Sequence record: MK373778.1
From: Escherichia phage vB_EcoM_WFbE185
Strand: one strand, 5' to 3'
Length of the DNA: 64,000 nt
Shown: positions 1,667 to 44,647 of the stretch, piece after piece
Numbering within the stretch: the stretch's first letter is position 1
Layout: every line of letters begins with the position of its first letter
Translations under genes and position numbers: made by a program
Notes under the pieces: model-generated
What the model was told of the DNA's origin: nothing
Databases searched by the model: none
Seen by the model: only the letters and a program-made list of their open reading frames with translations

Positions 1667-2230
1667 TTACCATTCCAATGCTAATTTTTTAAATTGTTTT
1701 TGTTCTTTCACATTTTTTGTAACTTCTTTGAGAAACTCATCAGTGACCATGGCCTTCAGTTCTTTAAGGACTATTGGCAACTTGTTATTTTTTTCAAGGA
1801 GCCGCTTATACTCGGTAGCATCATTCATGTTGATTGTGTAATGTTTCATCAACAGTTTGATAACTAGTAACTCTGAAGTGTCTTCGACTAGTTTAGCCCA
1901 TTTAGAGAATCGACGACCACGCGGAATTGCAGCCATCATATAGTTGAAGTGCGCTTCATCACTTAATTCAGAACCGACTAAGTTCATCATGTAAACGGCT
2001 GGCATACATTCTGGGAACTGGGATAATGAGTTCTCAACCATAAATTTTGAGTAGTCGACCTGAGCAATTGACATAGATTTCTTTTCATTAATAGCATTAA
2101 TGATTTTAAAGAATTCATTCTCAGGTTTTTCTTTAAACATGTCAGCACATTTTTGAATCGCATCAGCGTCGTTAGACTTCCATGCAATTTGGTGCTCGTT
2201 AAGTTGGACGTCATCATCAAATAAGTTCAT
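1667..2230 (-). CDS. 62: Clamp loader small subunit gp62
   Basis: 187 aa ORF; resembles T4 gp62 ([14 protein letters not shown]...KLALEW); synteny 44-62-regA. Confidence 0.9.
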
Positions 2231-2231
2231 A

Positions 2232-3194
2232 TTATTTCCAAGTCAGTTCGCAGGTCAGTTGAAGAAGCATATACATAACATGTAATTCAATATTACTTGC
2301 TAATCCATGAAACTTATTATTTTCGCCTGCAATTTCATAAAGCGAAATAATACTTTTACCTGGTGCAACTTTGTCATAACACTCAGAAACTAATTTATCG
2401 ATGAACCATGAATAATCAGCGGCATATTTTGGAGCTAACGCACGAAGCTGTTTGATATCTTTATTTTTCATTGCTTCTATGACATCATCTACCGTGCCAC
2501 GATCATTGGTTACAATCGACAAAATACCTGCATCAAGAACACCTTTAGACGAGTACTGGTCTAATTGACCAATTGTACGTCGAAAGTCCGGGAAGTTCTT
2601 TTTAACCAGAGCTGCAACAACTTTCATATCAGCGATTTCGATATTTTCGTTCTTACAGATTTCAACCATGCGATGAATCATTTTCTTCATCATTGAGATT
2701 TTATCTTCTTCGGTTGGACGTCCGAATTCGATAACTCGACAACGACTACGTAACGGTTCGATAATTCCATCGATGTTGTTGGCAGTAATAATAATAGAAC
2801 AGTTACTAGAGAATTCTTCCATGAATGTACGAAGGTGACGTTGTGATTCAGCGAGGCCACTACGGTCAAATTCATCAATAACAATAACTTTAGGCTTGCC
2901 TTCCATTGAGACTGAACGAGCGAATGCAGTTAATGGGCCACGCACAAAATCAATCTTACAATCAGAACCGTTGACGAACATCATTTCAGCGTTGATATCG
3001 TTACATAATGCTTTTGCCACGGTTGTTTTACCGGTACCAGGAGAAGGAGAGTGTAAAATAATATGAGGAAGTTTTCCTTTAGATACTAAAGACTTGAATG
3101 TTTCATGGTCATACGCGGGCAGAATACATTCGTCAATGGAAGAAGGACGATATTTCTGTTCTAGAATGTGTTCTTTGGAATTGATAGTAATCAT
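2232..3194 (-). CDS. 44: Clamp loader large subunit gp44 (AAA+ ATPase)
   Basis: 320 aa; Walker A SPGTGKTT; Walker B VIVIDEFD; synteny. Confidence 0.95.
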
Positions 3195-31834: not shown

Positions 31835-31911
31835 ATGAATTGTCCATTTCTGTATTTACCCCTCCAAGTAATTATGAATATACTATCACAATTCTAGGAG
31901 AAAGTAAACTG

Positions 31912-32214
31912 TTATTTACCTTTAATTACTTTAGCTGCTTCGATAGCCGCTTGCTGAAGGTCATCCATAGACATACCGAATTTAGAAGCAAAGTTATCAA
32001 TTTTCTTTTCGACAGCATTCAAAGGCTTGGCCTGTTTACCTTCATTAGCGCCAGGAAGAGCGAGAATACGCTCTTTGTCAATATAAAGGCTTACAAGTTT
32101 CTTACGGTCTTTATCGGACAAATCATGAAATGAATGGGCTTTTTTATTTATAGCGGCTTCTAATTTACCTGCACTCACTCGCGCTTCAGTAATAAATTCT
32201 TGATATGTTTTCAT
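31912..32214 (-). CDS. Internal protein with capsid-targeting sequence
   Basis: N-terminus MKTYQEFITEA (CTS plus prohead-protease LxE site); 100 aa; basic. Confidence 0.6.
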   Translation of the reverse strand: MKTYQEFITEARVSAGKLEAAINKKAHSFHDLSDKDRKKLVSLYIDKERILALPGANEGKQAKPLNAVEKKIDNFASKFGMSMDDLQQAAIEAAKVIKGK

Positions 32215-32277
32215 TTTTTGTTTCCTTGTTTGTTTGATAGAGTAATTATACCATATTAATACTTAAGCGTAAACAAT

Positions 32278-32538
32278 TTAAGCTTTACCGCCAGAAATAA
32301 TTCCGAAGTTGTTAAAATCGTATCCAATATCGTCAACATCTACTTTAGGACTTGCTACAACATAAGCAATTTCACTACGTTTTGCGTAGGTGTTGATTTC
32401 TTTACCATCGCCACCTAAGAAAGAATACCCATTACGTTTTAATGAGCCAAAATCTTCCGCATCACCAATGAAAGCTTTAACTTTAAATTTAGGACCTTTG
32501 GCATCTGCTTCAGCGATAAATTCTTGATACATTTTCAT
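32278..32538 (-). CDS. Internal protein with capsid-targeting sequence
   Basis: N-terminus MKMYQEFIAEA; 86 aa. Confidence 0.6.
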   Translation of the reverse strand: MKMYQEFIAEADAKGPKFKVKAFIGDAEDFGSLKRNGYSFLGGDGKEINTYAKRSEIAYVVASPKVDVDDIGYDFNNFGIISGGKA

Positions 32539-32544
32539 TTTTCC

Positions 32545-32958
32545 TTAGTAAATTGATTTACCATAGTATTTGTACCAAGTAGGACGTTGAGCAATTTTTT
32601 CGTCTAAGCGTGCTTGACTTATCGCAATGGACGCTTCGGACGGGACGTAATTATTACGAAATTCGGCAGGGATGTCGGAAATATCCTGGACTGTTGTGTC
32701 CTTGATTTTGAAACCACGTTTCAAACATTCGGCGATTAGCTCGATTTGACGTAAACGTAAAAATTCGAGTTTGTCGTAAAAGAATGTTACGTGACCTGTG
32801 CCTAAGATAAATGTTGGAGAGATTTTAAAATCCTTTACACGTTTACCGTTTTGAACATGTTTACGGACTGCACCAAATACGCGTGGTAATTCACGATACT
32901 CAGCCATAAGATGTTGGTCGGTCAGTTCAGAAACAAGTGTTAAATTGATACGAGTCAT
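32545..32958 (-). CDS. denV: Endonuclease V, pyrimidine-dimer DNA glycosylase
   Basis: ORF track 32545..32970; from [12 protein letters not shown]...[15 protein letters not shown] matches remembered T4 DenV. Confidence 0.9.
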
Positions 32959-33016
32959 AATTTCCTCCAAGTAGTTGATGAATGTATAGTATCAAAGTCC
33001 TTGGAGGAAGTAAACA

Positions 33017-33298
33017 CTATTTTTCTGAAGCGCCTGAAATATATTTTTCAAGACGTTGTTTCATTAGCGAGCCGTTCTTAGCGATTTCTTCCGGTTTATC
33101 GCACATACGTAACAAGGCTTCAAGCTTAGCGATATCGCTGGTACGTTCAAATTTGCGAGTATCTATCTTACTAGCAAGTTCAGAAATACGTGCTAATAGA
33201 CTTTCGGCTTCAACCAAAGCTGCACCTAGCTTAGTTGCAAATGTGTCGGTAGCTTCGTTAAGAATAGATTCTGATAAAAATTCACTATATGTTTTCAT
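33017..33298 (-). CDS. Internal protein with capsid-targeting sequence
   Basis: ORF track 33017..33313; from [11 protein letters not shown]. Confidence 0.55.
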
Positions 33299-33783
33299 AT
33301 ATACGCTTTCCAAGTTCCTGTTTTAAATGTTGAGATTACGCGTTTCGCGCGATTAGGTGTCTGACGATACCATTTAGATTGGGCTAAATTTACTGCCGCT
33401 TCGTCCCAACGTTTCTGTTGAAGCATACGAAGAGAATTAGTAAAACCGGAGACGCCTGCTACACCCATTTGGAAGACCATATTGACCAATGCACATCGAC
33501 GAACCGCATCTAAAGAATCGTATACCGGTTTAAGTTTAGCATTACCCAAGATTCCGCGAACGGCTTTATCAACGTCTTCATTAAATAGCTTTTCAGCCTC
33601 ATCAAGGGTAATTGTACCGTTGCATTTACGTCCGATCATTCTGTCAAGTTCAGCTTTAGCTACGGCTAAAGACGGGTTCTTTGTTACTAAATGGCCTATG
33701 CCAATAGTCCAAAAGCCTTCGGTGTCTTTGTATAAAGTCAGTCTAAGACCTTCGTCATTACGAAGCATTTCAAATATATTCAT
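33295..33783 (-). CDS. e: Lysozyme (endolysin) e
   Basis: ORF track 33295..33795; [32 protein letters not shown] matches remembered T4 lysozyme with catalytic E11/D20. Confidence 0.95.
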
Positions 33784-33817
33784 AATACCTCCCACGTTTA
33801 TAGGAGGTATTTATTAC

Positions 33818-35677: not shown

Positions 35678-35983
35678 TTATTTTCCTCGACATTCTTTAA
35701 TGAAATTTTCTAGATTGGTAGATTCAATAGCTTTTTTACGAGCTTCTGCGTGTTCTTCTTCAGACAATTTACGTTTATAATTGACCCAGACATTATGGTC
35801 TAAACCGGTCGTGGCATATAATATCAAAGCTCCGACGAATAATAAAAACGGTGATAAAAATATACAACCAGGAACACCATCCATACTGTAAGCCTTTTGT
35901 AATACTGCAACAGAAAGAGCTGCGTAAAAAAGTGATGCAAATATTGTAAAAAGACCAATTCGGTTGGTTTCGCCTAATTTCAT
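35678..35983 (-). CDS. Membrane protein, 101 aa
   Basis: ORF track; two hydrophobic helices. Confidence 0.5.
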   Translation of the reverse strand: MKLGETNRIGLFTIFASLFYAALSVAVLQKAYSMDGVPGCIFLSPFLLFVGALILYATTGLDHNVWVNYKRKLSEEEHAEARKKAIESTNLENFIKECRGK

Positions 35984-36011
35984 AATATTCTCCTCATGTT
36001 TTAATAGGACT

Positions 36012-36041
36012 ACTATAACATAGCCCTATAATTGTGTAAAC
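36012..36041 (-). promoter_or_regulatory. Sigma70-type early promoter inside ATAGGACTA/TAGCCCTAT palindrome
   Basis: GTTTAC-18-TATAGT. Confidence 0.5.
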
Positions 36042-36053
36042 AGTTTTGTGAAG

Positions 36054-37038: not shown

Positions 37039-37290
37039 TTAAATTTCACGACATGCGATATTATATTCATCCCAGAGGTCAACATGTGAAGCCTCTACCA
37101 ATGGAACGATTGTACCGTTTATGTCTTCATTATAAGGGCAAATTGTACAGTGCGCATCTTCGAATCGGATGCCTTTATGTTCAGATTTTTTATAACGCAT
37201 ATCGAATATCTTTGCAAACTTTTCACGACTAATAGTTTTAGCAACTACTTCAGTTCCGATACTTTCGTAATAAATCATTGTGGACTCCAT
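37039..37290 (-). CDS. Hypothetical protein, 83 aa
   Basis: ORF track; Cys/His-containing. Confidence 0.5.
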   Translation of the reverse strand: MESTMIYYESIGTEVVAKTISREKFAKIFDMRYKKSEHKGIRFEDAHCTICPYNEDINGTIVPLVEASHVDLWDEYNIACREI

Positions 37291-37306
37291 TTAATTTGAT
37301 AGGACT

Positions 37307-37336
37307 ACTATAACATAGCCCTATCTTGTTGTAAAC
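37307..37336 (-). promoter_or_regulatory. Sigma70-type early promoter inside 10-bp palindrome
   Basis: GTTTAC-18-TATAGT; arms GATAGGACTA / TAGCCCTATC. Confidence 0.5.
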
Positions 37337-37340
37337 TGTT

Positions 37341-37538
37341 TTAGCAAGAATAACTAGATGATACCCAGCCTTGAACAGTAATACTATTGTGGGATAATGA
37401 GATCGCGTCCTGGAGATTCAGACCTGCGTTATCTTCAATCCATAATGTAACTTCTTCGCGTTCTTCTGTTGCAATCTGGAACAGGTTTTCCAGAGCAGCT
37501 ACTGCGGTACGCACAGCACAATCTAATTCACGAGACAT
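37341..37538 (-). CDS. Small protein, 65 aa, with C-terminal GWVSSSxxC tail
   Basis: ORF track; ends QGWVSSSYSC. Confidence 0.5.
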   Translation of the reverse strand: MSRELDCAVRTAVAALENLFQIATEEREEVTLWIEDNAGLNLQDAISLSHNSITVQGWVSSSYSC

Positions 37539-40147: not shown

Positions 40148-40375
40148 TTATTTTTTAATCAAATTGACATAAAACTCTGCGTCTTCGGGGTGCATGCCTT
40201 CGCAGTATTCTTCAACCATGAACTTCTTAACGGCTTCATAAGGACCACTCAGATTAAGCTCAGTTGTCCAGAACTTGGAATCTTGTACTGAATCGATACG
40301 AACTTCAGGGTGACGGTTGCGAATAACTTCTTCTGTGTATTCATAATCAACGACATCAATACTAACTTTAGCCAT
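40148..40375 (-). CDS. Hypothetical acidic protein, 75 aa
   Basis: ORF track. Confidence 0.5.
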   Translation of the reverse strand: MAKVSIDVVDYEYTEEVIRNRHPEVRIDSVQDSKFWTTELNLSGPYEAVKKFMVEEYCEGMHPEDAEFYVNLIKK

Positions 40376-40403
40376 TTTGTTTTCCTCTTGATTTGATAGG
40401 ACT

Positions 40404-40432
40404 ACTATAACATAAACTTACTTAGATGTAAA
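40404..40432 (-). promoter_or_regulatory. Sigma70-type early promoter
   Basis: TTTACA-17-TATAGT. Confidence 0.5.
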
Positions 40433-40586
40433 TTATTTCAACGTCACCTTTAGCTGCTTTATAACCTTCAGCCCAAGATACAACAGAGTTTTTATCTGAG
40501 GATTCAAATTCAGGCATTGGACTTTCACCAATATTCACACAGTATGTTTCTTCATTTTCATCGAACCAAATAATTAAAGTAGTCAT
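40425..40586 (-). CDS. Small acidic protein, 53 aa
   Basis: Hand translation MTTLIIWFDENEETYCVNIGESPMPEFESSDKNSVVSWAEGYKAAKGDVEIIYI; SD GGAG; below cutoff. Confidence 0.35.
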
Positions 40587-41008: not shown

Positions 41009-41050
41009 GAAGTAAACATCTTTATGAAATATTTTTATGCCCTAGATACC

Positions 41051-41077
41051 AAAAAGCCCCAACCGTAAGGAAGGGGC
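41051..41077 (-). terminator. Rho-independent terminator, conserved GCCCC...GGGGC motif
   Basis: Minus reads GCCCCTTCCTTACGGTTGGGGCTTTTT. Confidence 0.6.
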
Positions 41078-41085
41078 ATTCTATA

Positions 41086-41550
41086 TTATTTAATTTGTTT
41101 AGCAGACCAGATACGGTCTTTAATAAGTTTTTGGATATCTTCAACATACTCAAGGCTATGAGCGTGAGGATTATCTTTGAAGCTATGTGCTCGAGCGAGT
41201 TTCTGACCTTCAGTTTTGATTACCAAAAGTTCTTTAAGAATTGCTTCATACTTAGAAATAATTCCTTTGGCGATATTTTTTTCTTGAGCTGCTTTAGGGT
41301 CCGCTTTTGGTGATGGTGCTTTACCTGTAGCTTTCTGGAACAATTCACCTGATGCAGCTAGGCTTTTAAAAACTCGACTAACAGTATTAGCATTAGTAAA
41401 TCCTTCAGCTTTAAAATCTCTAATAAAACGGAAACGTTCTTCATCAGAGGCGTCTTTATAAGAATATTTACCTGCTTGAATTGCTGCAATTGCTGCGGCT
41501 TTTACATCTGAACTAGATTGTTCAGTCAAAAATTCTGCATATGATTTCAT
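41086..41550 (-). CDS. Internal protein with capsid-targeting sequence, 154 aa
   Basis: N-terminus MKSYAEFLTEQ; Lys/Ala-rich. Confidence 0.55.
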   Translation of the reverse strand: MKSYAEFLTEQSSSDVKAAAIAAIQAGKYSYKDASDEERFRFIRDFKAEGFTNANTVSRVFKSLAASGELFQKATGKAPSPKADPKAAQEKNIAKGIISKYEAILKELLVIKTEGQKLARAHSFKDNPHAHSLEYVEDIQKLIKDRIWSAKQIK

Positions 41551-41594
41551 GTTACTTTTCCTAAGTTAATTAACTTATCTATTTATTATTATGC

Positions 41595-41622
41595 AAAAAA
41601 GCCCCAACCTTTCGGAAGGGGC
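41595..41622 (-). terminator. Rho-independent terminator, conserved GCCCC...GGGGC motif
   Basis: Minus reads GCCCCTTCCGAAAGGTTGGGGCTTTTTT. Confidence 0.6.
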
Positions 41623-42288: not shown

Positions 42289-42365
<77 letters not shown>

Positions 42366-42371
42366 AATATA

Positions 42372-42445
42372 TGACCCAGACCAGATTCGAACTGGTAACC
42401 TTTCCCTTATGAGGGGACTGCTGCTAACCATTGAGCTACAGGGCC
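42372..42445 (-). tRNA. tRNA with CAU anticodon (Ile2 or Met)
   Basis: Hand fold: T-arm ACCAG-TTCGAAT-CTGGT, anticodon loop CTCATAA, D-loop AATGGTTA; one mismatch in acceptor stem; CCA not encoded. Confidence 0.6.
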
Positions 42446-43881: not shown

Positions 43882-43918
43882 TTTATTTCTCCGTTTACTC
43901 ATTTGTTTTGATAGGACT

Positions 43919-43948
43919 ACTATAACATAGTCCTATCATCATGTAAAC
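43919..43948 (-). promoter_or_regulatory. Sigma70-type early promoter inside perfect palindrome
   Basis: GTTTAC-18-TATAGT; arms GATAGGACTA / TAGTCCTATC at 43910-43937. Confidence 0.55.
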
Positions 43949-43950
43949 TA

Positions 43951-44214
43951 TTAAATTCCAGCTTCGCGTTTAACATAATCAACATAAGCTTCGATAGCTT
44001 TCTTGCTGGTAATTTTTACCTGGCCACGTCCATTGCCTTCTTTAGAGTTTTTCTTAACAACTACATTACCATCTTTAACACCCCATACATGGACATAAGT
44101 ACCGATGTTTCGGTCGTAGAACATTGCATGGTCGTTGTTGTAAGAGAATGATTCGTAGTTCTCCGACAGAGTAGAAGATTGAGATTCAGCGATAAATTCT
44201 TTATACGTTTTCAT
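43951..44214 (-). CDS. Internal protein with capsid-targeting sequence, 87 aa
   Basis: N-terminus MKTYKEFIAES. Confidence 0.6.
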   Translation of the reverse strand: MKTYKEFIAESQSSTLSENYESFSYNNDHAMFYDRNIGTYVHVWGVKDGNVVVKKNSKEGNGRGQVKITSKKAIEAYVDYVKREAGI

Positions 44215-44249
44215 TTGTTTTTCCGTTTGGTTGTTGATTTGATAGGACT

Positions 44250-44279
44250 ACTATAACATAGTCCTATCGGCATGTAAAC
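44250..44279 (-). promoter_or_regulatory. Sigma70-type early promoter inside perfect palindrome
   Basis: TTTACA-17-TATAGT preceded by TG; arms GATAGGACTA / TAGTCCTATC at 44241-44268. Confidence 0.55.
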
Positions 44280-44282
44280 TAC

Positions 44283-44570
44283 TTACAGAAGAGTTTTTGC
44301 AATAATTTTAAGCTGAGCTACAGAAATATGCTTAGCTTTAAACAGTGCAGTCTCTTCGGCCGGAGAGATAACAATAGTAGCGCCGTCTTTCTTAGCAGAC
44401 CATCCGTCCCCTAAGTAAACAGTACCTTTTACTTCTTCACCGTCAACCAGACTAATCATTGGTTTACCCTCACGTCCTTTATTTGCTTTAATAACTTCGG
44501 AAGTAAGGGTTGCTTCGGTTAGAGTAGAAACGTTAGCATCAGGTGATATAAATTCTTTATAGGTTTTCAT
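44283..44570 (-). CDS. Internal protein with capsid-targeting sequence, 95 aa
   Basis: N-terminus MKTYKEFISPDANVSTLTEA. Confidence 0.6.
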   Translation of the reverse strand: MKTYKEFISPDANVSTLTEATLTSEVIKANKGREGKPMISLVDGEEVKGTVYLGDGWSAKKDGATIVISPAEETALFKAKHISVAQLKIIAKTLL

Positions 44571-44604
44571 TTTATTTCCTTGAGGTCGTTTATTTGATAG
44601 AATG

Positions 44605-44634
44605 ATAGTAACACACCATCATCCTTATGTAAAC
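44605..44634 (-). promoter_or_regulatory. Sigma70-type early promoter
   Basis: GTTTAC-18-TACTAT. Confidence 0.45.
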
Positions 44635-44647
44635 TGTTTTGTGAAAA

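What the first reader, a model, noticed from the sequence alone, without database searches (positions are those of the whole stretch)
31912..33298. Cluster of three capsid-targeting-sequence proteins interleaved with denV, next to lysozyme
ORFs 31912..32214 (MKTYQEFITEA), 32278..32538 (MKMYQEFIAEA) and 33017..33298 ([11 protein letters not shown]) carry the N-terminal signal that T4-type phages use to package internal proteins into the head, with an LxE prohead-protease site. Such proteins are injected with the DNA, and the one characterised T4 example (IPI*) blocks a host restriction system. These three are small, basic and not recognisably similar to each other beyond the signal.
Basis: partly seen in the sequence, partly recalled or inferred. 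Interest (0 to 1): 0.55.

Follow-up and report, generated by a model that had tools for sequence, protein, structure and literature searches.

The report
Known T4-type injected internal head proteins
These three small genes are already-catalogued "internal proteins" of an RB69-like T4-type coliphage, very probably packed into the phage head and injected with the DNA; one is the orthologue of T4 IPII, a known inhibitor of a host restriction enzyme, so the finding is correct but ordinary.

Summary
Three minus-strand ORFs (31912..32214, 32278..32538, 33017..33298) start with the T4 capsid-targeting sequence (CTS) followed by a prohead-protease site. They lie around denV and next to lysozyme e. 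The strict motif has five hits in the window against 0.0006 expected.

The window is a Mosigvirus (RB69-like), about 98% identical to many GenBank phages in which these genes are annotated as internal head or virion proteins.
- **ORF 1** is the IPII orthologue, 93% identical to T4 IPII. Published work shows T4 IpII inhibits the fused type IV restriction enzyme GmrSD.
- **ORF 3** belongs to the named Ip5 family, 48% identical to T2/RB32/RB70 Ip5. Its family-conserved cleavage site is LNE15|A16, not residue 10.
- **ORF 2** belongs to the RB69ORF125c family. A distant member, Morganella phage MP1 gp136, was detected by mass spectrometry in virions.

Only IPII is basic. IPI* is no longer the only characterised example, and its orthologue also lies in the window (44283..44570) with two further CTS ORFs.

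Comparison with RB69, mogra and T4 shows cassettes are exchanged by recombination in the 30-36 nt CTS-coding repeat. No fold or family link suggests a function for ORFs 2 and 3. Verdict: already known, low-to-moderate interest.

The parts
31912..32214 (-). ipII orthologue: 100-aa precursor with CTS MKTYQEFITE|A. The predicted mature protein is 90 aa and basic.
   Evidence: 93% identity to T4 IPII over 100 aa. phrog_7857 'internal virion protein', E 4.5e-55. Annotated as IpII in Shf125875. dN/dS against T4 is 0.29 with dS only 0.10.
32215..32277 (-). Intergenic early-type promoter and ribosome-binding site for ipII: GTTTAC at 32274..32269, TG-extended TATAAT at 32250..32245, then AAGGAAAC.
   Evidence: Best sigma-70-like site in the region, 10 of 12 matches with TG. 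T4 ipI, ipII and ipIII have the same GTTTAC-type architecture upstream.
32278..32538 (-). RB69ORF125c-family internal protein: 86-aa precursor with CTS MKMYQEFIAE|A. The mature part is about 76 aa, near-neutral, mixed alpha/beta, with a conserved KRNGYSF motif.
   Evidence: 95% identity to RB69 ORF125c, annotated 'internal head protein'. phrog_2667 and phrog_35655. dN/dS 0.09-0.17 across genera. E10 is invariant in the family. Distant member MP1 gp136 was found in virions by MS (PMC5384007).
32545..32958 (-). denV, pyrimidine-dimer DNA glycosylase. It is not an internal protein but sits inside the cassette array.
   Evidence: PF03013, E 3.3e-14. 78.6% nucleotide identity to T4 denV.
32959..33016 (-). 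Early-type promoter and ribosome-binding region ahead of denV and ORF 2. GTTTAC at 33015..33010 follows directly after the stop codon of ORF 3.
   Evidence: Read directly from the sequence. Member of repeat families D8 and D14.
33017..33298 (-). Ip5-family internal protein (RB69ORF127c type): 93-aa precursor with N-terminus [10 protein letters not shown]|SILNE|A. The mature part is a predicted three-helix bundle.
   Evidence: 48% identity to RB32/T2/RB70 Ip5. phrog_3499, E 2.1e-46. AlphaFold2 pLDDT 77 with helices 15-44, 53-65 and 69-92. The conserved [IL]-x-E15 site is seen. The ATG overlaps the stop codon of e.
33295..33783 (-). Lysozyme e. It is translationally coupled to ORF 3 through an ATGA overlap.
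   Evidence: PF00959, E 8.2e-14. Start MNIFEML as in T4 e.
32185..32214 (-). CTS-coding repeat (first 10 codons) of ipII. This is the recombination breakpoint relative to RB69 and mogra.
   Evidence: Repeat family D4, six copies at 73-87% identity. Homology with RB69 stops at 32185, and the mogra ipIII indel is bounded by 32227..32192.
32509..32538 (-). CTS-coding repeat of ORF 2.
   Evidence: Repeat family D4.
33269..33298 (-). CTS-coding repeat of ORF 3.
   Evidence: Repeat family D4.
44283..44570 (-). It belongs to the same functional class.
   Evidence: Residues 20-95 match PDB 2JUB (IPI*) residues 1-76, E 6e-42.
43951..44214 (-). Further CTS ORF, 87 aa, MKTYKEFIAES.
   Evidence: phrog_13302.
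41086..41550 (-). Further CTS ORF, 154 aa, MKSYAEFLTEQ, basic.
   Evidence: phrog_2280.

Best explanation
The three ORFs are internal (head-packaged, injected) proteins of a Mosigvirus, encoded as exchangeable cassettes in the e-denV-vs.8 hyperplastic region.

Proposed mechanism:
1. Each precursor carries a 10-15-residue N-terminal capsid-targeting sequence whose Tyr4 and Phe7 bind the gp22/gp67/gp68 scaffolding core during prohead assembly.
2. The gp21 prohead protease then cuts after [IL]-x-E. This is E10 in IPII and the ORF125c-type protein, and E15 and/or E10 in the Ip5-type protein.
3. By analogy with T4, some hundreds of mature copies stay in the head among the DNA and are ejected into the cell with the DNA, before any phage gene is expressed.
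4. There they neutralise pre-existing host nucleases that recognise the phage's sugar-modified hydroxymethylcytosine DNA. For the IPII orthologue the likely target is a single-chain GmrSD/BrxU-type type IV enzyme, as shown for T4 IpII.
5. For the other two the target is unknown. An anti-defence role is inferred from the class, from their patchy distribution and from cassette turnover.
6. The genes also sit behind early-type promoters, so protein is probably also made soon after infection.

Shown here: the sequence features, homology, purifying selection and recombination breakpoints.
Shown by others on T4 orthologues: CTS targeting and processing, and the IpII-GmrSD antagonism.
Inferred: packaging and function of ORFs 2 and 3 in this phage.
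For: - The CTS motif has 5 strict hits against 0.0006 expected. Tyr4, Phe7, [IL]8 and Glu10 are kept while the codons vary synonymously. These are the residues shown to control targeting and processing (PMC9026906, read).
- The IPII orthologue is 93% identical to T4 IPII. T4 IpII abolishes fused-GmrSD defence (bioRxiv 10.1101/2023.04.06.535777).
- ORF 3 is 48% identical to Ip5, and the RB32 record itself links Ip5 to RB69ORF127c.
- ORF 2 is 95% identical to RB69 ORF125c, annotated 'internal head protein'. Every distant relative found in 1.8 billion representative proteins also starts with a CTS. One of them, MP1 gp136, was identified in purified virions with 6 peptides and 59% coverage.
- Both orphan families are under purifying selection, dN/dS 0.09-0.31.
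- The nearest relative encodes gp21, gp22, gp67 and gp68.
- Cassette content differs between close relatives: RB69 has ORF124c+123c, mogra has ipIII+ipII, and TU01 has a 38-aa remnant of the ORF125c-type gene. Breakpoints fall in the CTS-coding repeat.
- Other CTS proteins with known targets all hit type IV restriction: IPI*, IpII and Bas37_0260.
Against: - I found no virion proteomics for this phage or any Mosigvirus.
- The MP1 virion preparation also contained clear non-structural proteins, so that detection is suggestive only. Without its CTS, MP1 gp136 scores only 31 bits against the family profile.
- ORFs 2 and 3 are near-neutral rather than basic like IPI-III.
- No TATAAATA late promoter lies upstream of any of the three.
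- No fold or family link to any known anti-defence protein.
- The AlphaFold model of ORF 2 is poor, pLDDT 58.
- In RB69 the CTS of ORF127c is scrambled by a compensated frameshift, yet the gene persists.
Confidence: 0.8

Rival explanations
1. ORFs 2 and 3 are packaged, but they serve head assembly or DNA packing (core filling, charge or spacing effects, as partly described for T4 IPIII) rather than countering host defence.
For: T4 IPIII mutants assemble heads more slowly and give about 40% of the normal burst (PMC9026906). No similarity to any anti-defence protein was found. ORF 3 is translationally coupled to the late-translated lysozyme gene.
Against: Both proteins are near-neutral, so they are poor DNA counter-ions. 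The genes are present, absent or decayed among close relatives, for example the 38-aa remnant in TU01, which argues against a general structural need. Every CTS protein whose molecular target has been identified is an anti-restriction factor.
Confidence: 0.12
2. The N-terminal motif is mainly a portable 5' module (promoter, ribosome-binding site and first 10 codons) kept because it mediates recombination and efficient early translation. On this view ORFs 2 and 3 act in the cytoplasm after early synthesis and are not significantly packaged.
For: Early-type GTTTAC promoters and no late promoter. The recombination breakpoints sit exactly in the CTS-coding repeat. T4 IPIII lacking its CTS still works when supplied in the cytoplasm (PMC9391042). 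The RB69 ORF127c CTS is frameshift-scrambled yet the gene is retained.
Against: The amino-acid pattern Y4/F7/[IL]8/E10 is kept despite third-position differences between copies and in relatives only 30% identical. T4 ipI, ipII and ipIII have the same early-type promoters and are packaged (PMC9026906). The distant family member MP1 gp136 was found in virions.
Confidence: 0.07
3. The ORFs are chance reading frames or annotation artefacts.
For: They are short, have no Pfam or NCBIfam family, and many records call them 'hypothetical protein'.
Against: The motif is about 8000-fold over expectation. The ORFs are conserved across four genera with dN/dS 0.09-0.31. They have ribosome-binding sites and promoters.
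Confidence: 0.01

Closest known systems
T4 internal protein II (IPII / IpII, NP_049734)
   Same: ORF 31912..32214 has the same length (100 aa) and is 93% identical. It has the same CTS (one A9T change) and cleavage site, the same type of early promoter, and is basic.
   Different: It sits after denV and an ORF125c-type gene, not between ipIII and denV as in T4. The host phage is a Mosigvirus. Seven substitutions. dS to T4 is only 0.10 against 1.1-1.3 for the flanking genes, which indicates recent exchange between genera.
Ip5 of T2, T6, RB15, RB32 and RB70 (Repoila et al. 1994 nomenclature; UniProt Q38378)
   Same: ORF 33017..33298 aligns over 84 residues at 48% identity, with 30 invariant columns and a shared [IL]-x-E15 site. 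Both are predicted to be helical.
   Different: Ip5 proper sits in the ipI locus next to 57B and 'replaces ipI'. This copy sits between e and denV, has an extra C-terminal 8 residues, and has a second LSE10 site.
RB69 ORF125c / ORF127c ('internal head protein', NP_861815 / NP_861817)
   Same: Direct orthologues at 95% and 91% identity with the same gene order e-127c-denV-125c.
   Different: RB69 carries ORF124c+ORF123c where this phage carries ipII. The RB69 ORF127c CTS differs by a -1/+1 compensated frameshift.
T4 IPI* (PDB 2JUB), inhibitor of GmrS/GmrD
   Same: Same class: CTS, processing, injection and an anti-type-IV role. A true orthologue lies in this window at 44283..44570.
   Different: None of the three ORFs resembles IPI beyond the first 11 residues. 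The IPI propeptide is 19 residues long.
Bas37_0260 (phage KarlGJung), CTS protein that inhibits McrBC
   Same: A small CTS protein in an IP cassette locus. It shows that uncharacterised CTS proteins can be type IV restriction inhibitors.
   Different: No similarity of the mature part to any of the six CTS proteins in the window.
PeSL promoter/stem-loop cassettes of T4-like hyperplastic regions (Arbiol 2010, PMC2839356; Comeau 2014, PMC4122927)
   Same: Repeated early promoter plus stem-loop elements precede small variable ORFs, and indels are bounded by short conserved repeats.
   Different: In this locus the breakpoints that could be mapped lie in the CTS-coding 30-36 nt rather than in the stem-loop itself.

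Membership tests
T4-type internal proteins (CTS-targeted, gp21-processed, injected) | N-terminal CTS at the initiator Met: M-K-x-[YF]-x-E-F, with aromatic residues at positions 4 and 7 (the targeting determinants) | tested here: met
   All three ORFs meet it. 5 strict hits against 0.0006 expected. The determinants are taken from PMC9026906.
T4-type internal proteins (CTS-targeted, gp21-processed, injected) | Prohead-protease site [IL]-x-E directly after the targeting half | tested here: met
   ITE10, IAE10, and LSE10 plus LNE15. E10 is invariant in the ORF125c family. E15 is nearly invariant in the Ip5 family.
T4-type internal proteins (CTS-targeted, gp21-processed, injected) | Encoded by a phage that has the gp21 protease and the gp22/gp67/gp68 scaffolding core | tested here: inconclusive
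   These genes lie outside the window. The relative that is 97.3% identical across this locus (Shf125875) encodes all of them.
T4-type internal proteins (CTS-targeted, gp21-processed, injected) | Processed protein physically present in mature virions | not testable with these tools
   Known for T4 IPII (PMC9026906). For the ORF125c family there is only the MS detection of the distant member MP1 gp136. There is nothing for the Ip5 family.
T4-type internal proteins (CTS-targeted, gp21-processed, injected) | Ejection into the host with the DNA | not testable with these tools
   Requires an experiment.
IPII orthologous group | Full-length, high-identity match to T4 IPII | tested here: met
   93% over 100 of 100 residues. 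phrog_7857, E 4.5e-55, covering positions 1-100 of 100.
IPII orthologous group | Inhibition of single-chain GmrSD/BrxU | not testable with these tools
   Shown for T4 IpII only.
Ip5 family | Significant similarity of the mature part to Ip5 of T2/RB32/RB70 | tested here: met
   tblastn E 2e-15 at 48% over 84 aa. Profile search recovers T2 and RB70 Ip5 at E 1e-32 to 1e-35. Mature-part-only blastp gives E 5e-19.
IPI* (2JUB fold) | Sequence or profile similarity of the mature domain to IPI* | tested here: not met
   hhalign aligns only residues 1-11. PDB sequence searches are empty. Only 44283..44570 matches 2JUB.
Bas37_0260-type McrBC inhibitor | Similarity of the mature part | tested here: not met
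   Only the CTS aligns.

The most novel reading that the evidence does not exclude
The Ip5-type and ORF125c-type proteins are injected inhibitors of host defences that have not yet been paired with any phage antagonist. One example would be type IV enzymes or glycosylases that recognise the arabinosyl-hydroxymethylcytosine DNA described for the type Mosigvirus RB69. Their unrelated small folds would then represent new inhibitor architectures.
Probability: 0.4. Interest if true: 0.5.

Novelty: already known. Interest (0 to 1): 0.25.

Why it matters
Internal proteins are the first phage proteins to reach the host cytoplasm, so they are a productive place to look for anti-restriction factors. IPI*, IpII, IPIII and Bas37_0260 were all found this way.

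This locus adds nothing new in kind, but it gives concrete, testable candidates. It holds an IPII orthologue in a different genus, which raises the question of whether GmrSD-type enzymes also attack RB69-type DNA. It also holds two conserved, uncharacterised CTS families.

The mapped breakpoints give a clean example of cassette exchange through the 30-36 nt CTS-coding repeat.

Tried and rejected
- **Family scans.** Pfam and NCBIfam gave nothing above threshold for any CTS protein.
- **PDB sequence and profile searches.** These were empty except for the IPI orthologue.
- **Structure prediction.** AlphaFold2 of the ORF125c-type protein was poor (pLDDT 58), so its fold search is not informative beyond family members.
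- **Fold search of the Ip5-type model.** The model (pLDDT 77) gave no PDB match with E<=0.001. In BFVD its only match below E=1 was its own family (E 2.0e-3).
- **IPI-like fold for ORF 2.** hhalign of the ORF125c family against IPI aligned only the CTS, so this idea was dropped.
- **Bas37_0260.** I tested whether this McrBC inhibitor is homologous to any CTS protein in the window. It is not. Its neighbour bas37_0261 is Ip5.
- **Late promoters.** A search for TATAAATA upstream of the three genes found none. The only hit nearby lies inside ipII, and the window-wide count equals chance. T4 ipI-III also lack one within 120 nt.
- **P0030.** This 534-aa repeat protein hit in the representative search was rejected as a short repeat-motif coincidence (GYSF.D.NGDG).
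- **Literature.** Searches for Mosigvirus virion proteomes found no direct data. One search on Ip5/Ip7 returned only inositol-phosphate papers. Repoila 1994 and Bair 2007 are not held.

Full report
**What is there.** The region holds five co-directional genes on the minus strand:
- Lysozyme e, 33295..33783.
- A 93-aa ORF, 33017..33298, whose ATG overlaps the stop codon of e (ATGA).
- denV, 32545..32958.
- An 86-aa ORF, 32278..32538, starting 6 nt after the denV stop codon.
- A 100-aa ORF, 31912..32214, behind its own promoter.

Pfam confirms lysozyme (PF00959) and denV (PF03013) and finds nothing significant in the three small ORFs.

**Is it more than chance?** Yes.
- A strict pattern for the T4 IPII/IPIII-type signal at an ATG (MK.[YF].[ED]F[ILVM].[ED]) hits five ORFs in the window, all on the minus strand.
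- The expectation is 0.0006 from amino-acid frequencies, and there were no hits in 200 shuffles.
- A looser pattern adds a sixth ORF.
- At the DNA level the first ten codons form a six-member repeat family at 73-87% identity (family D4).

**Where the window comes from.**
- The locus is 97-98% identical to many sequenced coliphages and Shigella phages of the genus Mosigvirus (RB69-like Tevenvirinae): 732 records match, 149 over most of the query.
- The window's G+C content is 37.4%.
- In RefSeq Shf125875 the three genes are annotated 'internal virion protein, IpII; similar to T4 IpII', 'internal head protein, similar to RB69ORF125c' and 'internal head protein, similar to RB69ORF127c'.
- RB69 itself annotates ORF125c and ORF127c as internal head proteins.
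- PHROGs places all three in head-and-packaging families: phrog_7857, phrog_2667/35655 and phrog_3499.

**ORF 1 is IPII.**
- It is 93% identical to T4 IPII over all 100 residues and is basic (pI 9.5).
- Against T4, its synonymous divergence is only 0.10. The neighbouring denV and e genes have dS of 1.30 and 1.12, and nucleotide identity is 92.8% against 71-79%. The ipII cassette has therefore moved between the two genera recently.
- T4 IPII is an established head component: about 360 copies, cleaved by gp21, non-essential (PMC9026906).
- T4 IpII has been shown to abolish defence by a fused GmrSD (BrxU-type) type IV restriction enzyme of ECOR21, which IPI does not inhibit (bioRxiv 10.1101/2023.04.06.535777).

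**ORF 3 is an Ip5-family protein.**
- tblastn finds 238 records at 80% identity or more and 258 at about 48%. The latter are the genes named Ip5 in RB32, T2, GiZh and VR26.
- The RB32 record states 'similar to RB15 T6 T2 RB70 Ip5, RB69ORF127c, replaces ipI'.
- A profile search recovers T2 and RB70 Ip5 at E 1e-32 to 1e-35.
- In the family alignment E10 is not conserved, while [IL]-x-E15 is nearly invariant. The homologous processing site is therefore LNE15|A16. This phage also has LSE10, so either or both may be cut.
- AlphaFold2 gives a three-helix bundle (pLDDT 77).
- Foldseek finds nothing in the PDB and only family members among viral models.

**ORF 2 is an RB69ORF125c-family protein.**
- It occurs in 217 phage records across Mosigvirus, Gaprivervirus and Gelderlandvirus.
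- A profile search of 1.8 billion representative proteins finds only nine hits. All four full-length distant ones (94-194 aa) begin with a CTS-like MK/Q-x-[YF]-x-x-[FY]-[IL]-x-E.
- One of them, P0029, is Morganella phage MP1 gp136. Its predicted mass of 11,212.6 Da matches the paper's 11,210 Da.
- MP1 gp136 was identified by ESI-MS/MS in purified virions with six unique peptides and 59% coverage (PMC5384007, Table 1).
- The link is distant. MP1 gp136 scores 31 bits against the family profile without the CTS. It is bridged by intermediates at 43-44% identity. That virion preparation also contained non-structural proteins. I treat this as suggestive evidence of packaging for the family.
- The AlphaFold model of ORF 2 is poor (pLDDT 58).

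**These are real genes.** dN/dS is 0.09-0.17 for ORF 2 across genera and 0.29-0.31 for ORF 3.

**The signal itself.**
- Mutational work on T4 IPIII located capsid targeting mainly at residues 4 and 7 and processing at residues 8 and 10 (PMC9026906).
- All three ORFs keep Tyr4, Phe7, Ile/Leu8 and Glu10 while third codon positions differ between copies.
- The machinery that reads the signal is not in the window. It is present in the near-identical phage Shf125875: gp67, gp68, gp21 protease, gp22 and gp23.

**Expression.**
- No TATAAATA late promoter precedes any of the genes.
- ipII and denV are preceded by T4 early-type promoters: GTTTAC at -35, and an extended TATAAT for ipII.
- T4 ipI, ipII and ipIII have the same architecture, so this does not argue against packaging.
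- ORF 3 is coupled to e, which has the T4-style arrangement of a hairpin masking its ribosome-binding site with a late-promoter-like AATAAATA box at its 5' edge.

**Why denV is 'interleaved'.** The e-to-vs.8 interval is a cassette array whose content differs between relatives:

| Phage | Gene order |
|---|---|
| T4 | e, ipIII, ipII, denV |
| This phage and Shf125875 | e, Ip5-type, denV, 125c-type, ipII |
| mogra | the same plus ipIII |
| RB69 | ORF124c and ORF123c (both with CTS) in place of ipII |
| TU01 | a 38-aa in-frame remnant of the 125c-type gene, plus a 124c-type gene and ipII |
| UPEC01 | e, denV, 124c-type, 125c-type |
| CGG4-1 | e, another CTS ORF, denV, Ip4-type, 125c-type |

- Homology with RB69 runs at 97.5% up to 32185, the last CTS codon of ipII, and resumes at 31837.
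- The ipIII insertion/deletion relative to mogra is bounded by the 36-nt ribosome-binding-site-plus-CTS repeat at 32227..32192.
- Cassettes are therefore swapped by recombination within the conserved 5' module. This fits the published picture of IP polymorphism and promoter/stem-loop (PeSL) shuffling (PMC3012670; PMC4122927).

- Two of the three proteins are not basic.
- IPI* is not the only characterised case. Besides IpII, IPIII is required for growth on ECOR17 and works without its CTS in the cytoplasm (PMC9391042). A CTS protein of phage Bas37 inhibits McrBC (bioRxiv 10.1101/2025.11.20.689424). That protein is not related to any CTS protein in the window.
- The window also holds the true IPI orthologue at 44283..44570, which matches PDB 2JUB at E 6e-42, and two more CTS ORFs.

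**Verdict.**
- The IPII orthologue has a likely function by orthology.
- The Ip5-type and ORF125c-type proteins remain without a known target or recognisable fold. They are reasonable candidates for new injected anti-defence factors.

Noticed in passing
window 44283..44570 (-): True IPI orthologue (95 aa, MKTYKEFISPDANVSTLTE|A). Residues 20-95 match the solved IPI* structure 2JUB at E 6e-42. It lies next to the 57B homologue, as in T4.
   Followed up: yes
window 43951..44214 (-) and 41086..41550 (-): Two more CTS ORFs: 87 aa (phrog_13302) and 154 aa (basic, phrog_2280), neither with an assigned function. The 154-aa cassette is flanked by 32-nt direct repeats of a terminator-like hairpin (41046-41077 and 41591-41622, 84% identical). 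It has an AATAAATA box about 35 nt upstream of its start.
   Followed up: partly
window ~35981-36047, 37276-37342, 40373-40439, 43888-43954, 44219-44285, 44589-44640: A family of 50-66 nt repeats that combine a GTTTAC early promoter with an inverted repeat (TAGGACTA..TAGTCCTA) around the -10 box, each placed ahead of a small ORF. They look like the PeSL promoter/stem-loop cassettes described for T4-like hyperplastic regions.
   Followed up: partly
window 33784..33815 (-), upstream of e: The lysozyme ribosome-binding site GGAGG is paired in a hairpin (cctcc-N10-ggagg). A late-promoter-like AATAAATA box sits just 5' of it. This is the T4 e arrangement, in which only late transcripts expose the ribosome-binding site.
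   Followed up: no
window 31879..32227 vs L003 (T4): The ipII cassette is 92.8% identical in DNA to T4 (dS 0.10), while flanking e, denV and vs.8 are 71-86% identical (dS 1.1-1.3 for e and denV). This indicates recent exchange of this cassette between Tequatrovirus and Mosigvirus.
   Followed up: yes
L005 (RB69) 1741..1800 vs window 33239..33298: RB69 ORF127c reads MKTYMNFYQNLSLNE where this phage reads [15 protein letters not shown]. The DNA differs by a -1 and a +1 indel 21 nt apart, a compensated frameshift inside the CTS that still keeps Tyr4, Phe7 and the LNE15 site. It could be real or an error in the 2003 record.
   Followed up: partly
L008 (TU01) 3001..3117; proteins P0028, P0011: Some Mosigvirus genomes carry a 36-38 aa in-frame-deleted remnant of the ORF125c-type gene (CTS fused to the last about 24 residues). 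This shows the gene is dispensable and decays.
   Followed up: partly
L002 (mogra) 2600..2854; protein P0001: Several records start the ORF125c-type gene two codons late (MYQEF...). This hides the CTS and leaves the gene annotated as 'hypothetical protein'.
   Followed up: yes
window 42289..42445 (-): Only two tRNA genes (Arg-TCT, Met-CAT) lie in the position where T4 has a cluster of eight.
   Followed up: no
L007 (CGG4-1) and the STP4-a/S16 group: Gelderlandvirus genomes carry two paralogues of the ORF125c family, one after denV and one next to 57B. The latter is the closer relative (46-47% identity) of the virion-detected MP1 gp136.
   Followed up: partly
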